Part shown: positions 1 through 51,500 of the stretch, in pieces
Layout: each line of letters opens with the position of its first letter
Numbering within the stretch: the stretch's first letter is position 1
Source of the DNA: Euglena gracilis
Lineage: Eukaryota
DNA: 64,000 nucleotides
Direction of reading: 5' to 3'
NCBI GenBank assembly: GCA_039621445.1
Contig: CP154954.1
Location: forward strand, 49,145,847-49,209,846
Position numbers and translations under genes: made by a program
Notes under the pieces: generated by a model
Told to the model about the DNA's origin: nothing
Database searches by the model: none
The model's input: only the letters and a program-made list of their open reading frames with translations

Positions 1-3000
1 AGCGCAAACCTCAGCGGGGAAAGTTTGCACGTTAAGATTTTGGCGGGTCATGCACAAAAGAGGCCAAAAGTCCAAAGGGAGGCCAAGGTCACAAGTTTAG
101 GCCGAGGCCAACTTTGTGGTGGCCAAGTTTGCACTTGGGGTGGCGCAAATATTAAGGCACTGCGCAAAATTAGGGAACTGCGCACTTATTGGGGGGGGGG
201 GGGTTAATTGAACCGAGCTTGGGGGTTCAAGCCAGGAGGGTAAAAAAAAGCCGAGCTTGGGGCGCATTTTGGAAGCTCTATTTCGAGGCGTAAATTAGGA
301 ATCACCACCAAATCTGAACCGGCAAATGGCGGGAATCGGAACGCTTGCATATTTTCTTTCTCCAAAAATTTATGAACACTTCAGCTTTTCCAAGGAATCC
401 CTCCCCTGTACCTCATTGGTCTGCAGCTGCACAAACTCCTCCTCCGCCTCGGCCATGATGCTGCCTCGCTCCGTGCCAGGCGACCCTCAAGCAAAGGCAA
501 TTGCGGCTGAATTGAGGTGGATCAGAGCCCAATTTGGCCGAGAGGACAAATTGGATGACCAACAGGACAGGATGACAGAAAATGGACGGAATATTGGACC
601 GACCGGGGCGCAAATTTTCGGGAGAATTTAAAGGCAGTTTTTATTCCAAATGTCTTGTTTCACTTTAGCAAAGGAAAAAAAGAAAAAAGGTCCGCACCAA
701 GACATTCAAAACGCATTGAAAAGAAGCAAGGAATGCGGTCCAACATTGAGATTTGCGCTGTGTCTATTCTATTGAAGGCAGGGCTTGTCAGGGCCGAAGA
801 GTGCCTGAGTGCGGGTCTGCACGGCACGAAGCACATCCATCATATCCTGCCGGCAGGCGCCCGCATTGCGGCACTTGCGACGCAGTGACCCACACAACAG
901 GTGCGGCCAACTTTGGGGGGGGGGGGGGCTAAGTTTTTTGTGTGTAAGGCGGAGGGGGGACCAAGCGCCGGTGGGGGGGGGGGGGCATGAGAGCGGGAGA
1001 AAAAGAAGCGAGCGTGGGGTGATGCCAGGCAGTTGGGGAGAGGGGCCACACGGCGAGGGCCTGCCCGCCACATACCCTCGTATTGCAGCGTCCGACGGAT
1101 TTGGTTCGCGCTGAGGTCCTGCAATGACAGGGTATGGAGGTGGTCAGTCAATGGAATTTGGGTGTCAAGATCTGGGTCTTGGGGCTCTCTTGCAAAAGAG
1201 CTATACCCTGAGATGCTCCTCTCACCTTTGCCGGACCATCGGCAAACTTCGGGAAACCCTGCAATACTTGGGGAATAACTTCCCCGGCACACATATTGTT
1301 CCACCACCAAAAAAAATATATACATCATGTTTCAACCCGAAAAAAAACATTTGGCGGAGATCTGCCACATCTACTTGTGAATTTAAAAAAAATGAACATC
1401 AGAAATAGTAAACTCACCCCTGCAGAAAGCACACAGTTACAAGGTTTTGCAGATAGTCCCAGGAACTTTTCATCAATGCGACCTTGTCTTTTGATGTGTT
1501 CCAGGTAGGGTCATTTGAAAGTCCACCCAAACATTTTTTTGGAACTCCCACCCACAACCAGGCTTCCGGGGGGGGGGGGGGGGGATGCTATGGCTATGGG
1601 TTCCTGCTATGGGCCAGCCCATAGCAGGAACACCCCCCGGGGGAGGAGGGGTTCAGTTTGGACCTGGGTGCCTGTCGACTGAGCCAATTTCACTTGAAAA
1701 TGGTCATTTTTGGGCCCCAGCACCTTTGGTGCACAGGGTGTGCTAGAGCAAGAGCACGACCCCCCCCCCCAATTCTTGACCCCCACCCCACCCCAGATCA
1801 AAAGTTCCCAACCTGCCTGCCTGCCCATAGCACCCCCCTGGCCTGCGCACAACTCTCCGGGGGGAGGGGGGGGGGTGTCCAAAAGAACACAGACGCAAAC
1901 ACCCACCCACCCACCCACCCACCCAGGGGTGGGGAGGGGTGCAGGAGGTCCAAACCCACCCACCTTCGTGGAAACCCTCCCCCCCCACCCTTGGGGTGGA
2001 TTCGCACAACAGTGAACGGATTTATAGGATGGTCCCACCCCCACCCGGCACACCAGCCACTCCAGCTGGTCCAGCAGGTGTTGCCGGTCTGAGCGCTCCT
2101 CCGCGCTGACCCTGTCCCCAGGGCCGTGCGGGAAGGCCGGGGGGGGGGGGGCGATCACCACAGCACCGCTGAGGGACATTCGGCGGGGAATGCAAAATTT
2201 GACCCAGAAAACCGGCGCCGGAAAGGCGGGAAGGCCTGGTGGCCTGGCGGGGGGCAAGCACCTATAGTCAAGCCCAAAAATTTCTCCATTTTAGGCCATT
2301 TTAGGCCATTTTAGGCCATTTTAGGCCATTTAAGGCCATTTAAGGCCATTTTAAGGTATAGGTGGGGGTTCTGAAAACCAAAATTTTTGGTCATTTTTGT
2401 CCCGAAAACAGTATCATAACGTGTGCAAACCTTCTCTTGTTCAGTAATAACAAATGTACATCCAAAAAAGCATGCAAAATTCATGAACACTGATCAAAAC
2501 CATGGGAAGCTCAACAAATCTATACTCATACCCACAGAGGAATTCTGAACAGTAAGAATTTGCGGCAGTGAAAATTTTTCAGAAAAAAAATTGGACAAAA
2601 TTTAAAATTTTCTATTTGTGCTAACAAAAAGGCTCCTGGTTTTTTGTTTTTTGTGAATTCTACACCATTTTGCGGAATTTCGCAAGAAGAAGTCATTTTT
2701 TCTGAAAGATGATGCTGCTGCCTGGTGAAATTAAATTTGATTTTGGCATTGTTTTAGCCATGTATATCATTCATTTTATTATTATGATAAATATTTAAAG
2801 AATAATTTTTAAGATCCATAATACAAACAAAAATTTATTTGCAAAAATACTATGCACCGATGTTTGTCTCGTAAATAATGAAATGGAAGCATGGGGGAAA
2901 AGTCAAAAAAGAGATGAAAGATGTCGGGAAAATCTCAATTGAACTATAAAATTCTACATACAAACATAACTTTTGTAAGTAAATTTAATATTTCATTTTT

Positions 3001-48500: not shown

Positions 48501-51500
48501 CCCCTGGGCAGGGCCAGATATCCGGATTCGGAATCCAAGGTATCTGGATAACGTTCAACTGGTGTGGGCCACACATTTTGTTTACTGATCCCCGGCGGGG
48601 GGATCATGCTTGTGCTTACCAACCGGGGGGGGAGGGGGGGGGGGTGCTATAGGGTGCCTGCCCCTAGCAGGCACCCCCCCCCCCCGGGGGGGATAGGGGT
48701 CCGGGCCGGACCCAGAAAATTTTCATTGAAAATGGCCGTTTCCGGGCCCCCGGCGCCTTCGGCGCCGGGGTCGGAGGGGGTGCCTGCTAGGGGCAGGCAC
48801 CCCCCCAAAACCCTACCCCCCCCCGGGGGGGTCGGATCGGGTGCTATGGGGTGCCTGCCCCTAGCACCCCCCCCCCGTGGGGTAGGCACCCGACTAAGCG
48901 CAAGCCTTGGGGGGATGCAGGTTCACTTCCACTTTCTTCCAGAAAACCAGGCAGTCACTGATCCCGGGTGGGGTCACCACTCTGGAATCCAAAATGAAAT
49001 GACTACTGGCCTCCCCTTGCCCACCGACCAGGTTCCTGCCACCCCCGACCAGGGAGGGGGGGGGTCTGCCCCCCTGCCCACCGACCACCACTGTTTACCA
49101 ACCACCTCCTGGTCCAGGGTTGGAGATTAGGGGGATTTGGGCATCTGGTCGTACGATCCCCCCGAACAAACGTGGAAAAAAAAACCGAAAAAAATTTCCG
49201 GAGCCTCGGTGCCGGGTCACTTTAGTGGTTTTTTGCCGACCCCCCCCCCGGAGGTCCAGCCCAATAACCAGTCAATCACTCTGAAAAAAAAAACTAGTCA
49301 CCCCCGGGGGGGGGGGGGTTCGGCCAGTGACCACGCGATTGTGTGGTATGGGCTGACAGGATGCAAGATAATCAGCGATGCGAATCGAGACAAAAAAATA
49401 TCGCCTGGACAATGCGCACCTGCCTCTCAGCATTGGGCTCTCCCCGTCCTCCTCGTCCTCCTCTGCATCCTCCAGCGTGTCCTCCTCAAGCTCCACCCCA
49501 AACGCCTCTGCCTCGCCAGCCCCCGGCATTTTCCCAACTCCCAGTGGGCTGAGACGGGGACCGGATCGAGGGGCGTCAGCCGTTGGCCGGGACAAAACCA
49601 CTTGGACAGATAGGCTGCAGGCAGCTCGCATGCACAGGAAAGAGAGGGAGGGGGCAATTTCGCCTGCCCGCACCCCAATTGCTAGCAGGTGCACCTGCAC
49701 CAAACACGGTCCATGTCAATCGATAGCCAAGGGGGGTGAATGGAACGGGAAGCACTTGTCCCCACAGGTTTGTCGGCCGCTGCAGGCGTTTGTTCATCCC
49801 CAGAGTCGCTCAGCAGCTCATCGTCGGCCGGCTTGGCTGCAACAAAAACGAATGGCAGTGCCCACAATGGAATTCGTCAAAAATATGCGGTACGTTGTCT
49901 CATTGTTTGCTGTGAAAGGGCAAACTCCCGACCCAGTCCAGTCACGCATCCGAAGATCAGATGAAACCAGAGCCAATCGCCAACAAACCCCACAACTCAA
50001 ACCCCTCCCTCATCCCAGGACCCAGGGCAACACACCGGCCCGGAGGCGGATCCCGGCCGCGGCCAGCGTCCGGTGCTGTTCCAGCTCCTGCCGGTAGCGG
50101 GCGACGCCACGGAGGGGGGGGGGCAGTGTGTGGAAGAACTCTGGAGTAGGATCAGGCTGGTTTGTGGTTTGTTTTCCCCTTGAGAGTGGTGATGGGTTGT
50201 AATACTTCGGTGCTGTGTGCGACGCTCAAACCACCGATGCTCAAAGCAACCCCACAAGTCAACCTACACGGCCCTGGTTGGTTCAGACAACAATCAGCAC
50301 AGCGGGGGCATGGGGAAGCCAGAAAGACCCAACAACGGCCGCCCACCCCTTCGTGGATGCGGTCCTGCTTGGCCAGCTCGTGGTACTTTGCCTTCTCTGC
50401 GGCGCGAGGGGCGAGGGTCCCGGCAAGGTTTCCCTCGGGAAAGCTCGGAGAAAGGTCGTGGCAAACAGACACGCAGACACGCTTCAGAACTGCGGACTGG
50501 GAACCCCGCCCCACCCGAGGGGACCCAGCCAGCCGGCTAGAAAAAGGTGCTGGCTGAGGACGCCAAGGCAGCCCCACAGGATGACCGCCAAATGCTCCAG
50601 AAGGGGAGGGCGGACCTGCTGTGCCGAGGTGGCCCCAGCGTTCCGTCAGGATGTTGGCGATCTCGAAGAACTGGGCCGTCGGGTGCTCCAGCGCGACAGC
50701 AGCCTTGGGGTTCCATAGGGTGGCGCAGCAAAAAAAAAAACAGTGTCCCCCCCCCCTCCTCTTCTCCACCACCCATTCTCGGCAAAGACAAGCCGAGCAC
50801 TCCATTCGCAGACACGGAAAGCCAATTCGAGGTTGGACGGACGCACGCATTGCACTCAGTCCACTAACCCCAGGACCTGACACCAAGAAAGACGCTAAGG
50901 CGAAAAGTCCGCCCCCCCCCCCCTCGCCCCCGCATAACATCCACAGGCGATGTGCGAGTTCAGAACGTTCCGTGATGCTGCCCGGACAGACTGCCCGAAG
51001 CCACACCATGGGCGTGGGCCGCCACGAAGTGCATGTAGCTCGACTGTGGCCGGAGGGGCGTCGCCATTCCCCCCGGACGGCTGCTCGTCCGCCGGCATCC
51101 TTTGGGCAAGGGGAGGACGGGCCATCAAGCAGGGAAGCCCCAAAAGATACAGCGGGTAAGGTCGACTGTTTTTCCGAACGTCAAAGGTTTGAATGCCACT
51201 GACAAAATGGTCGATGAATACATGAGTGCATGAGTGCACGAATGCGTAGGATGAGGGGTCATATCCATTCACCCTTTGTTTAGAAAGCCAGTGAGCCCCT
51301 CACCTGGGATCCAAAGAAATCCCTTTCAAAGCCAGTTGTTCAGTCATTTCAGGTCATTTTGGGCTTGCATCTTTGCAGCATTTCCTTCCATTTTGGCAGC
51401 ATGTGGCCACAATTGTCCATGTGGGCTATTTTTGGGCCATGCCAACCATTTTTTTGGATTGTTCGGCCATTTCTCTGCCCAAAAATGGCCATAAATGGTT

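What the first reader, a model, noticed from the sequence alone, without database searches (positions are those of the whole stretch)
472..50358. End-pairing splice code predicts in-frame joins across both genes
Applying only the rule '+4..+6 pairs with -8..-6' gave in-frame joins at 472-810, 849-1066, 2114-3851, 15541-16603, 16701-16812, 16972-17091, 17119-17438, 18771-18985, 24922-25982, 38533-40882 and 50103-50358. Two of these joins complete or connect recognisable domains. The paired triplet co-varies (CAG/CTG, CGG/CTG, CAC/GTG, CCA/TGG, CGA/TCG), which points to structure rather than sequence as the signal. Standard gene finders would miss these genes.
Basis: partly seen in the sequence, partly recalled or inferred. 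Interest (0 to 1): 0.72.

Follow-up and report, generated by a model that had tools for sequence, protein, structure and literature searches.

The report
Euglena-type nonconventional introns, partly mispredicted

Summary
All 11 proposed introns lie on the minus strand. There, +4..+6 pairs with -8..-6 in 10 of 11 by Watson-Crick pairs and in 1 of 11 with a G-U pair.

RNA contigs and raw RNA-seq reads laid on 16100-27100 tested 6 of the 11:
- Exact: 2 (16701-16812; 18771-18985).
- Right 5' end only: 1 (17119-17438; the real intron is 16987-17438).
- Contradicted: 3 (15541-16603, 16972-17091, 24922-25982).

That stretch holds 15 RNA-supported introns. None has GT/GC-AG ends among the 13 checked, and 12 were not predicted.

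The signal is real. Nine of the 15 real introns pair in register, and random intervals do so 3.2% of the time. It is also weak as a predictor: 31,138 intervals on this strand fit CAG...CTG-N5|R.

The rule is published (Milanowski 2016; Gao 2024) and was dissected by mutagenesis (Nomura 2025). Five predictions remain untested. 38533-40882 has paralogue support, and three others have GT-AG rivals nearby.

Verdict: a known phenomenon, partly correct predictions, low novelty.

The parts
16701..16812 (-).
   Evidence: joint 16699->16812 (skips 112, slide 4): X1 depth 172, X2 depth 344, X21 3 reads, X20 0. Searches show the register.
18771..18985 (-).
   Evidence: X1 contig ends at 18772 with the 12-letter overhang AGCACTTGGTGC, which equals the window sequence after 18987 (same mRNA within the slide). 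It keeps the CCCH1 reading frame. Single contig only.
16987..17438 (-). Real intron (452 nt, CAG/CTG).
   Evidence: joint 16985->17438: X1 172, X2 344, X21 6 reads, X20 0; the 5' site has 16 compliant 3' sites within 1.5 kb, among them 17119 and 16987.
16972..17091 (-).
   Evidence: the only supported joint here skips 16986-17437, so neither end of 16972-17091 is used.
15541..16603 (-).
   Evidence: X2 record 8 (depth 344) runs unbroken over 16523-16699 and then joins to 16100-16278. Its downstream 'exon' would lie inside the (TG)n array, and the exon start is a pyrimidine.
16279..16522 (-). Real intron not predicted (CAG/TTG, one G-U pair)
   Evidence: joint 16278->16523: X1 315, X2 344, X21 7 reads, X20 0..
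17523..18056 (-). Real intron between the two zinc fingers, not predicted. It has no in-register triplet but still a terminal fold of -5.8 kcal/mol.
   Evidence: joint 17522->18057: X1 172, X2 344, X21 12 reads..
18116..18225 (-). Real intron inside zinc finger 1, not predicted (CTG/CAG with a 6-nt 3' spacer)
   Evidence: joint 18115->18226: X1 172, X2 344, X21 5 reads..
18257..18700 (-). Inferred further intron of the CCCH1 gene
   Evidence: Inference. It is needed to join the frame upstream of 18701 to the first-finger cysteine motif. RNA depth is low in bin 18302-18668. No joint was listed for it.
16100..19062 (-). Gene CCCH1: tandem CCCH zinc-finger protein, conceptual product 219 aa
   Evidence: Pfam zf-CCCH 25.8 bits (cut-off 20.5) on 17439-17522. 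Spliced model from the joints, translated.
24922..25982 (-).
   Evidence: the real joints are 24865->25049 and 25077->25895 (depths 1345-1754; X21 23 and 10 reads). 25982 lies inside a real exon and 24922 inside a real intron.
21261..27647 (-). Nine RNA-supported nonconventional introns of a second gene, none predicted: 21261-21612, 21661-21957, 22082-22480, 22598-23889 (alternative 22597), 23942-24701, 24866-25048, 25078-~25874, 26030-26689, 26768-27647
   Evidence: joints. 25874 is inferred from the 20 extra letters listed in table 5c. 27648 comes from the loose end at 26767 (36 X21 reads) located.
38533..40882 (-). No transcript test, but supported by homology.
   Evidence: CAG/CTG, N5, purine. 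The join gives 21 residues between the finger-1 histidine and the finger-2 cysteine, as in RNA-verified CCCH1, at a position within two codons of intron 17523-18056. Of the 19 compliant joins listed, only this one keeps that spacing.
40949..41283 (-). Intron of CCCH2 predicted here by homology to 18116-18225 (CTG/CAG, N5, purine)
   Evidence: (tblastn). No RNA laid.
849..1066 (-).
Evidence: The GT-AG rival 847-1075 (GTATGT...CAG) changes frame.
472..810 (-).
Evidence: -8.9 kcal/mol. An in-frame GT-AG rival is 486-827.
2114..3851 (-).
50103..50358 (-).
   Evidence: An in-frame conventional rival is 50088-50346 (GTGGGC...CAG, read). Pfam and PDB searches on the two flanks found nothing.
19067..38405 (.). 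Tandem duplication (19067-28617 and 28618-38405, 95-99% identical) carrying the 3' part of the CCCH2-like gene

Best explanation
The window is nuclear DNA of a euglenid-like protist. Its minus-strand genes are interrupted by nonconventional introns. The genes are a tandem CCCH zinc-finger gene at 16.1-19.1 kb, a paralogue spread over 41.4-21 kb through a tandem duplication, a coiled-coil-like gene at 0.4-4 kb and HMG-box exons at 47.8 and 50.4 kb.

These introns have no GT-AG borders. A short helix forms between the two intron ends, typically C-A/G/T-G at +4..+6 with its complement about 5-6 nt before the 3' end. A purine starts the next exon. The helix brings the two junctions together, and the cuts are placed at fixed distances from it.

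Shown here: removal at the RNA level, absence of the joints from DNA, non-GT-AG ends, and enriched end pairing. Inferred from the literature: how the cut sites are measured from the helix, and the machinery, which is still unknown.

It hits some true sites and misses most.
For: -: 14 RNA joints in 16100-27100 are seen in two RNA-like contig sets from different studies and in raw RNA-seq (3-39 reads each), and in 0 contigs of the DNA-like run X20.
- 0 of 13 joints have GT/GC-AG ends on either strand at any slide.
- the strict rule is met in 7 of 13 joints against 3.2% of 200,000 random intervals (P = 5e-8). The published code is met in 5 of 13 against 0.41% (P = 1.5e-9).
- with the two loose-end-derived introns added, 9 of 15 are in register by Watson-Crick pairs, 11 of 15 with G-U allowed, and 13 of 15 if the 3' spacer may be 4-6.
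- the terminal fold is -4.4 kcal/mol or lower in 14 of 15.
- Splicing restores a 219-aa tandem CCCH protein (Pfam).
- Literature: PMC4770533 (passages) states the +4,+5,+6 / -8,-7,-6 rule. PMC11170887 (section 10) reports CCAGG / CCTG consensus sequences and terminal pairing energies. PMC12501133 (Results) defines 5'-N3CDG-/-CH'GN5-6|R by knock-in mutagenesis and synthetic introns.
Against: - The organism is coded ('organism A'), so 'euglenid' is inferred from the intron type alone. No spliced-leader or rRNA evidence was obtained, and Rfam found nothing.
- 2 of 15 real introns (17523-18056, 22598-23889) show no in-register triplet at any spacer, and 10 of 15 do not fit the published code with a purine exon start.
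- The RNA status of X1 and X2 is a guess by the tool. Only X21 is on record as RNA.
- Joint coordinates in the duplicated gene may come from either copy or from alleles.
Confidence: 0.9

Rival explanations
1. Several of the reader's joins are chance pairings. The triplet rule plus an open frame is so permissive that a reader can always find a 'fitting' intron.
For: - Three of the 6 tested are wrong, and a fourth has a wrong 3' end.
- 31,138 compliant intervals lie on this strand.
- 10.1% of random intervals pair if G-U is allowed.
Against: - Two of the 6 are exact to the base, far above what random choice among about 18 candidate joins per site gives.
- The 38533-40882 join reproduces the inter-finger spacing of the verified paralogue.
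Confidence: 0.45
2. Some of the untested intervals are removed as conventional GT-AG introns at nearby sites: 847-1075 instead of 849-1066, 50088-50346 instead of 50103-50358, and 486-827 instead of 472-810.
For: - GTATGT and GTGGGC each match 4 of 5 positions of the published GTGTG 5' consensus (PMC11170887 section 7).
- Both 3' sites are CAG preceded by C-rich tracts.
- The same gene at 1.1-1.5 kb shows GTGAGT/GTGAGA...CAG-bounded mini-exons (read by eye).
- 50088-50346 and 486-827 keep the frame.
Against: - 847-1075 shifts the frame away from the high-GC3 downstream frame.
- 50088-50346 would remove the basic-aromatic pair expected in the third helix of an HMG box. That pattern is recalled from memory and was not tested.
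- None of these sites has RNA evidence either way.
Confidence: 0.3
3. The RNA 'joints' are reverse-transcriptase template switches or assembly artefacts at short direct repeats, not splicing.
For: Many joints are slidable by 1-4 nt, which means short direct repeats flank them.
Against: - The same joints occur in three runs from different studies, in all contigs that cover them and at high depth.
- They restore an open frame with two zinc fingers.
- 5 joints are non-slidable.
- Published knock-in genetics show that such introns are removed in vivo (PMC12501133).
Confidence: 0.03

Closest known systems
Nonconventional introns of euglenids (Milanowski et al. 2014/2016; Gao et al. 2024; splicing code 5'-N3CDG-/-CH'GN5-6|R of Nomura et al. 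2025)
   Same: - No GT-AG borders.
- Pairing of +4..+6 with -8..-6, mostly CAG/CTG.
- Purine at the start of the downstream exon.
- Slidable junctions.
- Conventional-looking introns in the same genes.
- The CGG/CTG variant.
   Different: Nothing essential. Here 10 of 15 RNA-supported introns do not fit the strict published code with a purine exon start (published: 38.8% of nonconventional introns do not fit). Two have the helix with a 3' spacer of 4 or 6.
Intermediate introns of euglenids (GT/GC-AG ends plus end pairing; PMC4770533)
   Same: 849-1066 and 50103-50358 each have a GT...AG pair a few bases outside or inside the paired ends.
   Different: The GT-AG sites are offset by 2-15 nt from the pairing-defined junctions, so the two readings give different mRNAs. 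Which one is used is unknown.
Noncanonical introns of diplonemids (PMC12621601; search listing and abstract only)
   Same: A euglenozoan lineage with abundant non-GT-AG introns.
   Different: Not compared in detail. The CAG/CTG register found here is the euglenid one.
Conventional U2-type spliceosomal introns
   Same: Removed from pre-mRNA to restore the reading frame.
   Different: No GT-AG ends and no U1-complementary 5' site. The sites are defined by intramolecular end pairing.

Membership tests
Euglenid nonconventional introns | Borders are not GT/GC-AG | tested here: met
0 of 13 RNA joints have GT/GC-AG ends at any slide on either strand.
Euglenid nonconventional introns | Nucleotides +4,+5,+6 pair with -8,-7,-6 (mostly CAG/CTG) | tested here: met
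   9 of 15 RNA-supported introns by Watson-Crick pairs and 11 of 15 with G-U. Random intervals: 3.2% and 10.1%. 4 of the 9 are CAG/CTG or CTG/CAG.
Euglenid nonconventional introns | Full published code N3-CDG ... CH'G-N5-6 | purine | tested here: inconclusive
   5 of 13, or 5 of 15 with the two added introns, against 0.2-0.4% of random intervals. The enrichment is strong, but most introns here lie outside the strict code (published fit: 61.2%).
Euglenid nonconventional introns | Terminal sequences fold together (first and last 10 nt) | tested here: met
   14 of 15 reach -4.4 kcal/mol or lower. Random intervals: 17% reach -4 or lower and 33% give 0.
Euglenid nonconventional introns | Removed from RNA while present in DNA | tested here: met
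   the joints occur in X1, X2 and X21, with 0 contigs in the DNA-like X20, whose contigs run through the introns (for example records 14 and 15).
Euglenid nonconventional introns | Host is a euglenid (or diplonemid) | not testable with these tools
   The organism is coded. Rfam found nothing and no whole genome is held. The host is inferred from the intron type.
Euglenid nonconventional introns | Excised intron released as circular RNA (recalled from the literature; mentioned in the PMC12501133 introduction) | not tested
   No back-splice analysis was possible.
CCCH tandem zinc-finger proteins | C-x8-C-x5-C-x3-H finger matched by Pfam above the cut-off | tested here: met
   PF00642 scores 25.8 bits (cut-off 20.5) on 17439-17522. 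The first finger is seen only after splicing, with C-x7-C-x4-C-x3-H spacing.
HMG-box proteins | Pfam HMG_box above the gathering score | tested here: not met
   47766-47900 scores 24.9 bits against a cut-off of 25.4 and covers profile positions 8-40 of 69 only. The flanks of 50103-50358 give no hit.

The most novel reading that the evidence does not exclude
A large share of the introns in these genes obey neither GT-AG nor the published N3-CDG/CH'G-N5-6|R code: 10 of 15, including two with no in-register triplet and two with the helix shifted by one base. Cut-site choice in this organism may therefore be set by a looser or second structural rule than the one defined genetically. In addition, the partial tandem duplication may offer the CCCH2 gene two alternative 3' halves.
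Probability: 0.2. Interest if true: 0.35.

Novelty: already known. Interest (0 to 1): 0.15.

Why it matters
It confirms that annotating this kind of genome needs transcript evidence or a trained model. The published end-pairing code is real, but it is far too permissive to place introns alone. For the scan, this is a known phenomenon correctly recognised in kind. It is not a new splice code. The window does add a small, clean set of 15 RNA-supported nonconventional introns, several of them outside the strict published code.

Tried and rejected
- **Protein evidence for the five untested joins.** The search of protein representatives on 1067-1331(-) gave one spurious repetitive bacterial protein, P0001. 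The search for homologous proteins on 1067-1331(-) with near lengths, on 1391-1510(-) with longer lengths and on 47766-47900(-) with longer lengths gave no hits. In hindsight the first query was mostly intron. The second may not be coding, since its GC3 is 0.31.
- **Domain searches on the flanks of 50103-50358.** The PDB sequence search and Pfam at E <= 10 found nothing, because the pieces are too short.
- **Exact 30-mers of two exons in metagenome contigs.** 0 matches.
- **Other look-ups.** No whole genome is held. Rfam gave 0 matches on the window. Earlier findings: none on record.
- **Sequencing runs.** The look-up of sequencing runs listed no holder on record as RNA. The RNA-like contig sets are the tool's guess.
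- **Choice of laid stretch.** The stretch for read laying was chosen to leave out the 1.1-kb (TG)n array and the second copy of the duplication, because the tool turns away long repeats.
- **Rejected reading.** The second gene at 21-27 kb is not on the plus strand. No long frame appears there, and the minus-strand frame shows similarity to the CCCH1 C-terminus.
- **Candidate intron left open.** A candidate 149-nt intron splitting finger 2 of CCCH2 (38332-38480) has no in-register pairing.

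
Full report
**What the sequence shows.**
- The window looks eukaryotic. It has no long open frames, long G/C runs and microsatellites.
- All 11 proposed introns make sense only on the minus strand. There, +4..+6 is the exact complement of -8..-6 in 10 of 11, and 2114-3851 is CGG/CTG with one G-U pair. On the plus strand only 1 of 11 pairs.
- In most of them the pairing extends to 5-7 bp. Folding the first and last 10 nt gives -4.9 to -13.6 kcal/mol for all 11.
- Each interval has a phase that is open on both sides.

**How much of this chance would give.**
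- Of 200,000 random intervals with matching lengths, 3.2% meet the strict rule once the usual junction sliding is allowed, and 10.1% do with G-U pairs. The full published code is met by 0.41%.
- The minus strand of this window alone holds 31,138 intervals of 60-3000 nt that fit CAG...CTG-N5|purine.
- So the rule and the 'in-frame' property do not by themselves identify an intron.

**Transcript test.**
- The look-up of sequencing runs gave RNA-like contig sets, raw RNA-seq runs of the same coded organism, and a DNA-like set.
- I laid X1, X2, X21 and X20 on 16100-27100. I chose this stretch to avoid the 1.1-kb (TG)n array and the second copy of a tandem duplication. It covers 6 of the 11 predictions.
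- Results for the six:

|---|---|---|
| 16701-16812 | Exact | X1 depth 172, X2 depth 344, X21 3 reads, X20 0 |
| 18771-18985 | Supported | One X1 contig whose 12-letter overhang at 18772 equals the sequence after 18987 |
| 17119-17438 | 5' end right, 3' end wrong | The real intron is 16987-17438 (X21 6 reads); the 27-nt micro-exon is absent |
| 16972-17091 | Contradicted | Neither end is used |
| 15541-16603 | Contradicted | Transcripts run through 16603 and instead remove 16279-16522 |
| 24922-25982 | Contradicted | Contradicted by joints 24865->25049 and 25077->25895 |

- None of the RNA joints stands in the DNA-like run.
- The stretch holds 15 RNA-supported introns. Two of them have a boundary that I derived from loose ends. 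Twelve were not predicted.
- The tool listed only the 15 best of 129 joints, so minor isoforms cannot be excluded.

**Is the signal real?** Yes.
- 0 of 13 joints have GT/GC-AG ends at any slide on either strand.
- The strict rule is met by 7 of 13 joints (P = 5e-8 against 3.2%) and the published code by 5 of 13 (P = 1.5e-9).
- With the two further introns added, 9 of 15 pair in register by Watson-Crick pairs, 11 of 15 with G-U, and 13 of 15 if the 3' spacer may be 4-6. Two show no triplet at all.
- Terminal folds are -4.4 kcal/mol or lower in 14 of 15. Among random intervals, 17% reach -4.
- The one exception is 16987-17438.
- The triplets among real introns vary: CAG/CTG, CTG/CAG, GTG/CAC, CCA/TGG, CGC/GCG, GGC/GCC.

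**The genes.**
- Splicing by the RNA joints gives a 219-aa tandem CCCH zinc-finger protein, CCCH1, at 16.1-19.1 kb. Pfam zf-CCCH scores 25.8 bits. One extra intron, 18257-18700, is inferred and not shown.
- A paralogue, CCCH2, has finger 1 at 41.4 and 40.9 kb and the start of finger 2 at 38.5 kb.
It lies within two codons of the verified intron 17523-18056. Of the 19 compliant joins listed nearby, it alone keeps that spacing. I rate it about 0.8 likely.
- The exons at 21-27.7 kb (and their copy at 31-37.5 kb) resemble the CCCH1 C-terminus. They are probably the 3' part of CCCH2, duplicated in tandem.

**The other four open predictions.**
- 472-810, 849-1066 and 2114-3851 fit the published code with a purine exon start.
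- Among the tested predictions of that class, 2 of 3 were right, so I rate each of these at roughly 0.5-0.65.
- GT-AG rivals exist. 847-1075 shifts the frame. 486-827 is in frame.
- 50103-50358 (CAC/GTG) is outside the published code, and tested predictions of that kind were 0 of 2. It has an in-frame conventional rival, 50088-50346.
- The claim that it 'completes' an HMG box rests on a recalled helix-3 pattern. Pfam and PDB searches on the flanks found nothing. I rate it about 0.4-0.5.
- All protein-database and metagenome routes to transcripts failed.

**What is known.**
- The rule is published in the same positions. Pairing of +4,+5,+6 with -8,-7,-6, mostly CAG/CTG, with complementarity kept and a purine at the downstream exon start, is stated in PMC4770533 (8 passages read).
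- Gao et al. 2024 (PMC11170887; outline and sections 6, 7 and 10 read) report CCAGG at +3..+7, CCTG at -9..-6 and terminal pairing energies over 16,151 nonconventional introns in E. gracilis.
- Nomura et al. 2025 (PMC12501133; outline and the whole Results read) define 5'-N3CDG-/-CH'GN5-6|R by point mutation, spacer changes and synthetic introns. CGG-CTG works. Most other complementary middle bases fail. 61.2% of nonconventional introns fit.
- PMC6221363, PMC3935182 and PMC12621601 were seen only as search listings.

**Verdict.** These are true euglenid-type nonconventional introns, correctly recognised in kind, but the phenomenon and the rule are already known. The specific predictions are exact in 2 of 6 tested, half right in 1 and wrong in 3, with 5 left open. 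The rule alone is not predictive.

Noticed in passing
19067-28617 and 28618-38405: A tandem duplication of about 9.6-9.8 kb at 95-99% identity. It carries the 3' exons of a CCCH2-like gene, so one copy lacks the 5' finger exons. RNA reads cannot tell the two copies apart.
   Followed up: partly
14932-16067; 46786-47106; 27156-27286: Long microsatellites: a (TG)n array of 1.1 kb, a (GT)n array of 0.3 kb and an (AT)n array.
   Followed up: yes
2281-2345 and 3590-3720: Arrays of the 10-bp unit TTAGGCCATT, in the same orientation, flank an AT-rich core of about 1 kb (GC 0.41) inside the proposed intron 2114-3851. This may be an inserted repeat or mobile element.
   Followed up: no
This suggests mixed intron types in one gene (read by eye). 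One candidate exon, 1418-1495, has a low GC3 of 0.31 and may not be real.
   Followed up: partly
38307-38532 (-): Finger 2 of the CCCH2 paralogue is split. The C-x8-C start ends at 38481, and the remaining C-x3-H part lies at 38336-38307 (copy at 28548-28519). The implied 149-nt intron has no in-register end pairing.
   Followed up: partly
17387-17661: Reads and DNA contigs end loosely in poly-G/C here. A 229-nt 'joint' 17410->17640 also stands in 9 DNA contigs. This is a homopolymer-linked length variant or assembly problem, not splicing.
   Followed up: no
47766-47900 (-): The N-terminal half of an HMG box scores 24.9 bits, just under the 25.4 cut-off, and covers profile positions 8-40 of 69. 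It ends at an unmapped intron, and its C-terminal half was not found downstream.
   Followed up: partly
22539-22545; 25889-25894: The window differs from both RNA and DNA runs by small indels and substitutions, with two RNA variants at 22539-22545. These may be alleles or differences between the two duplicated copies.
   Followed up: no
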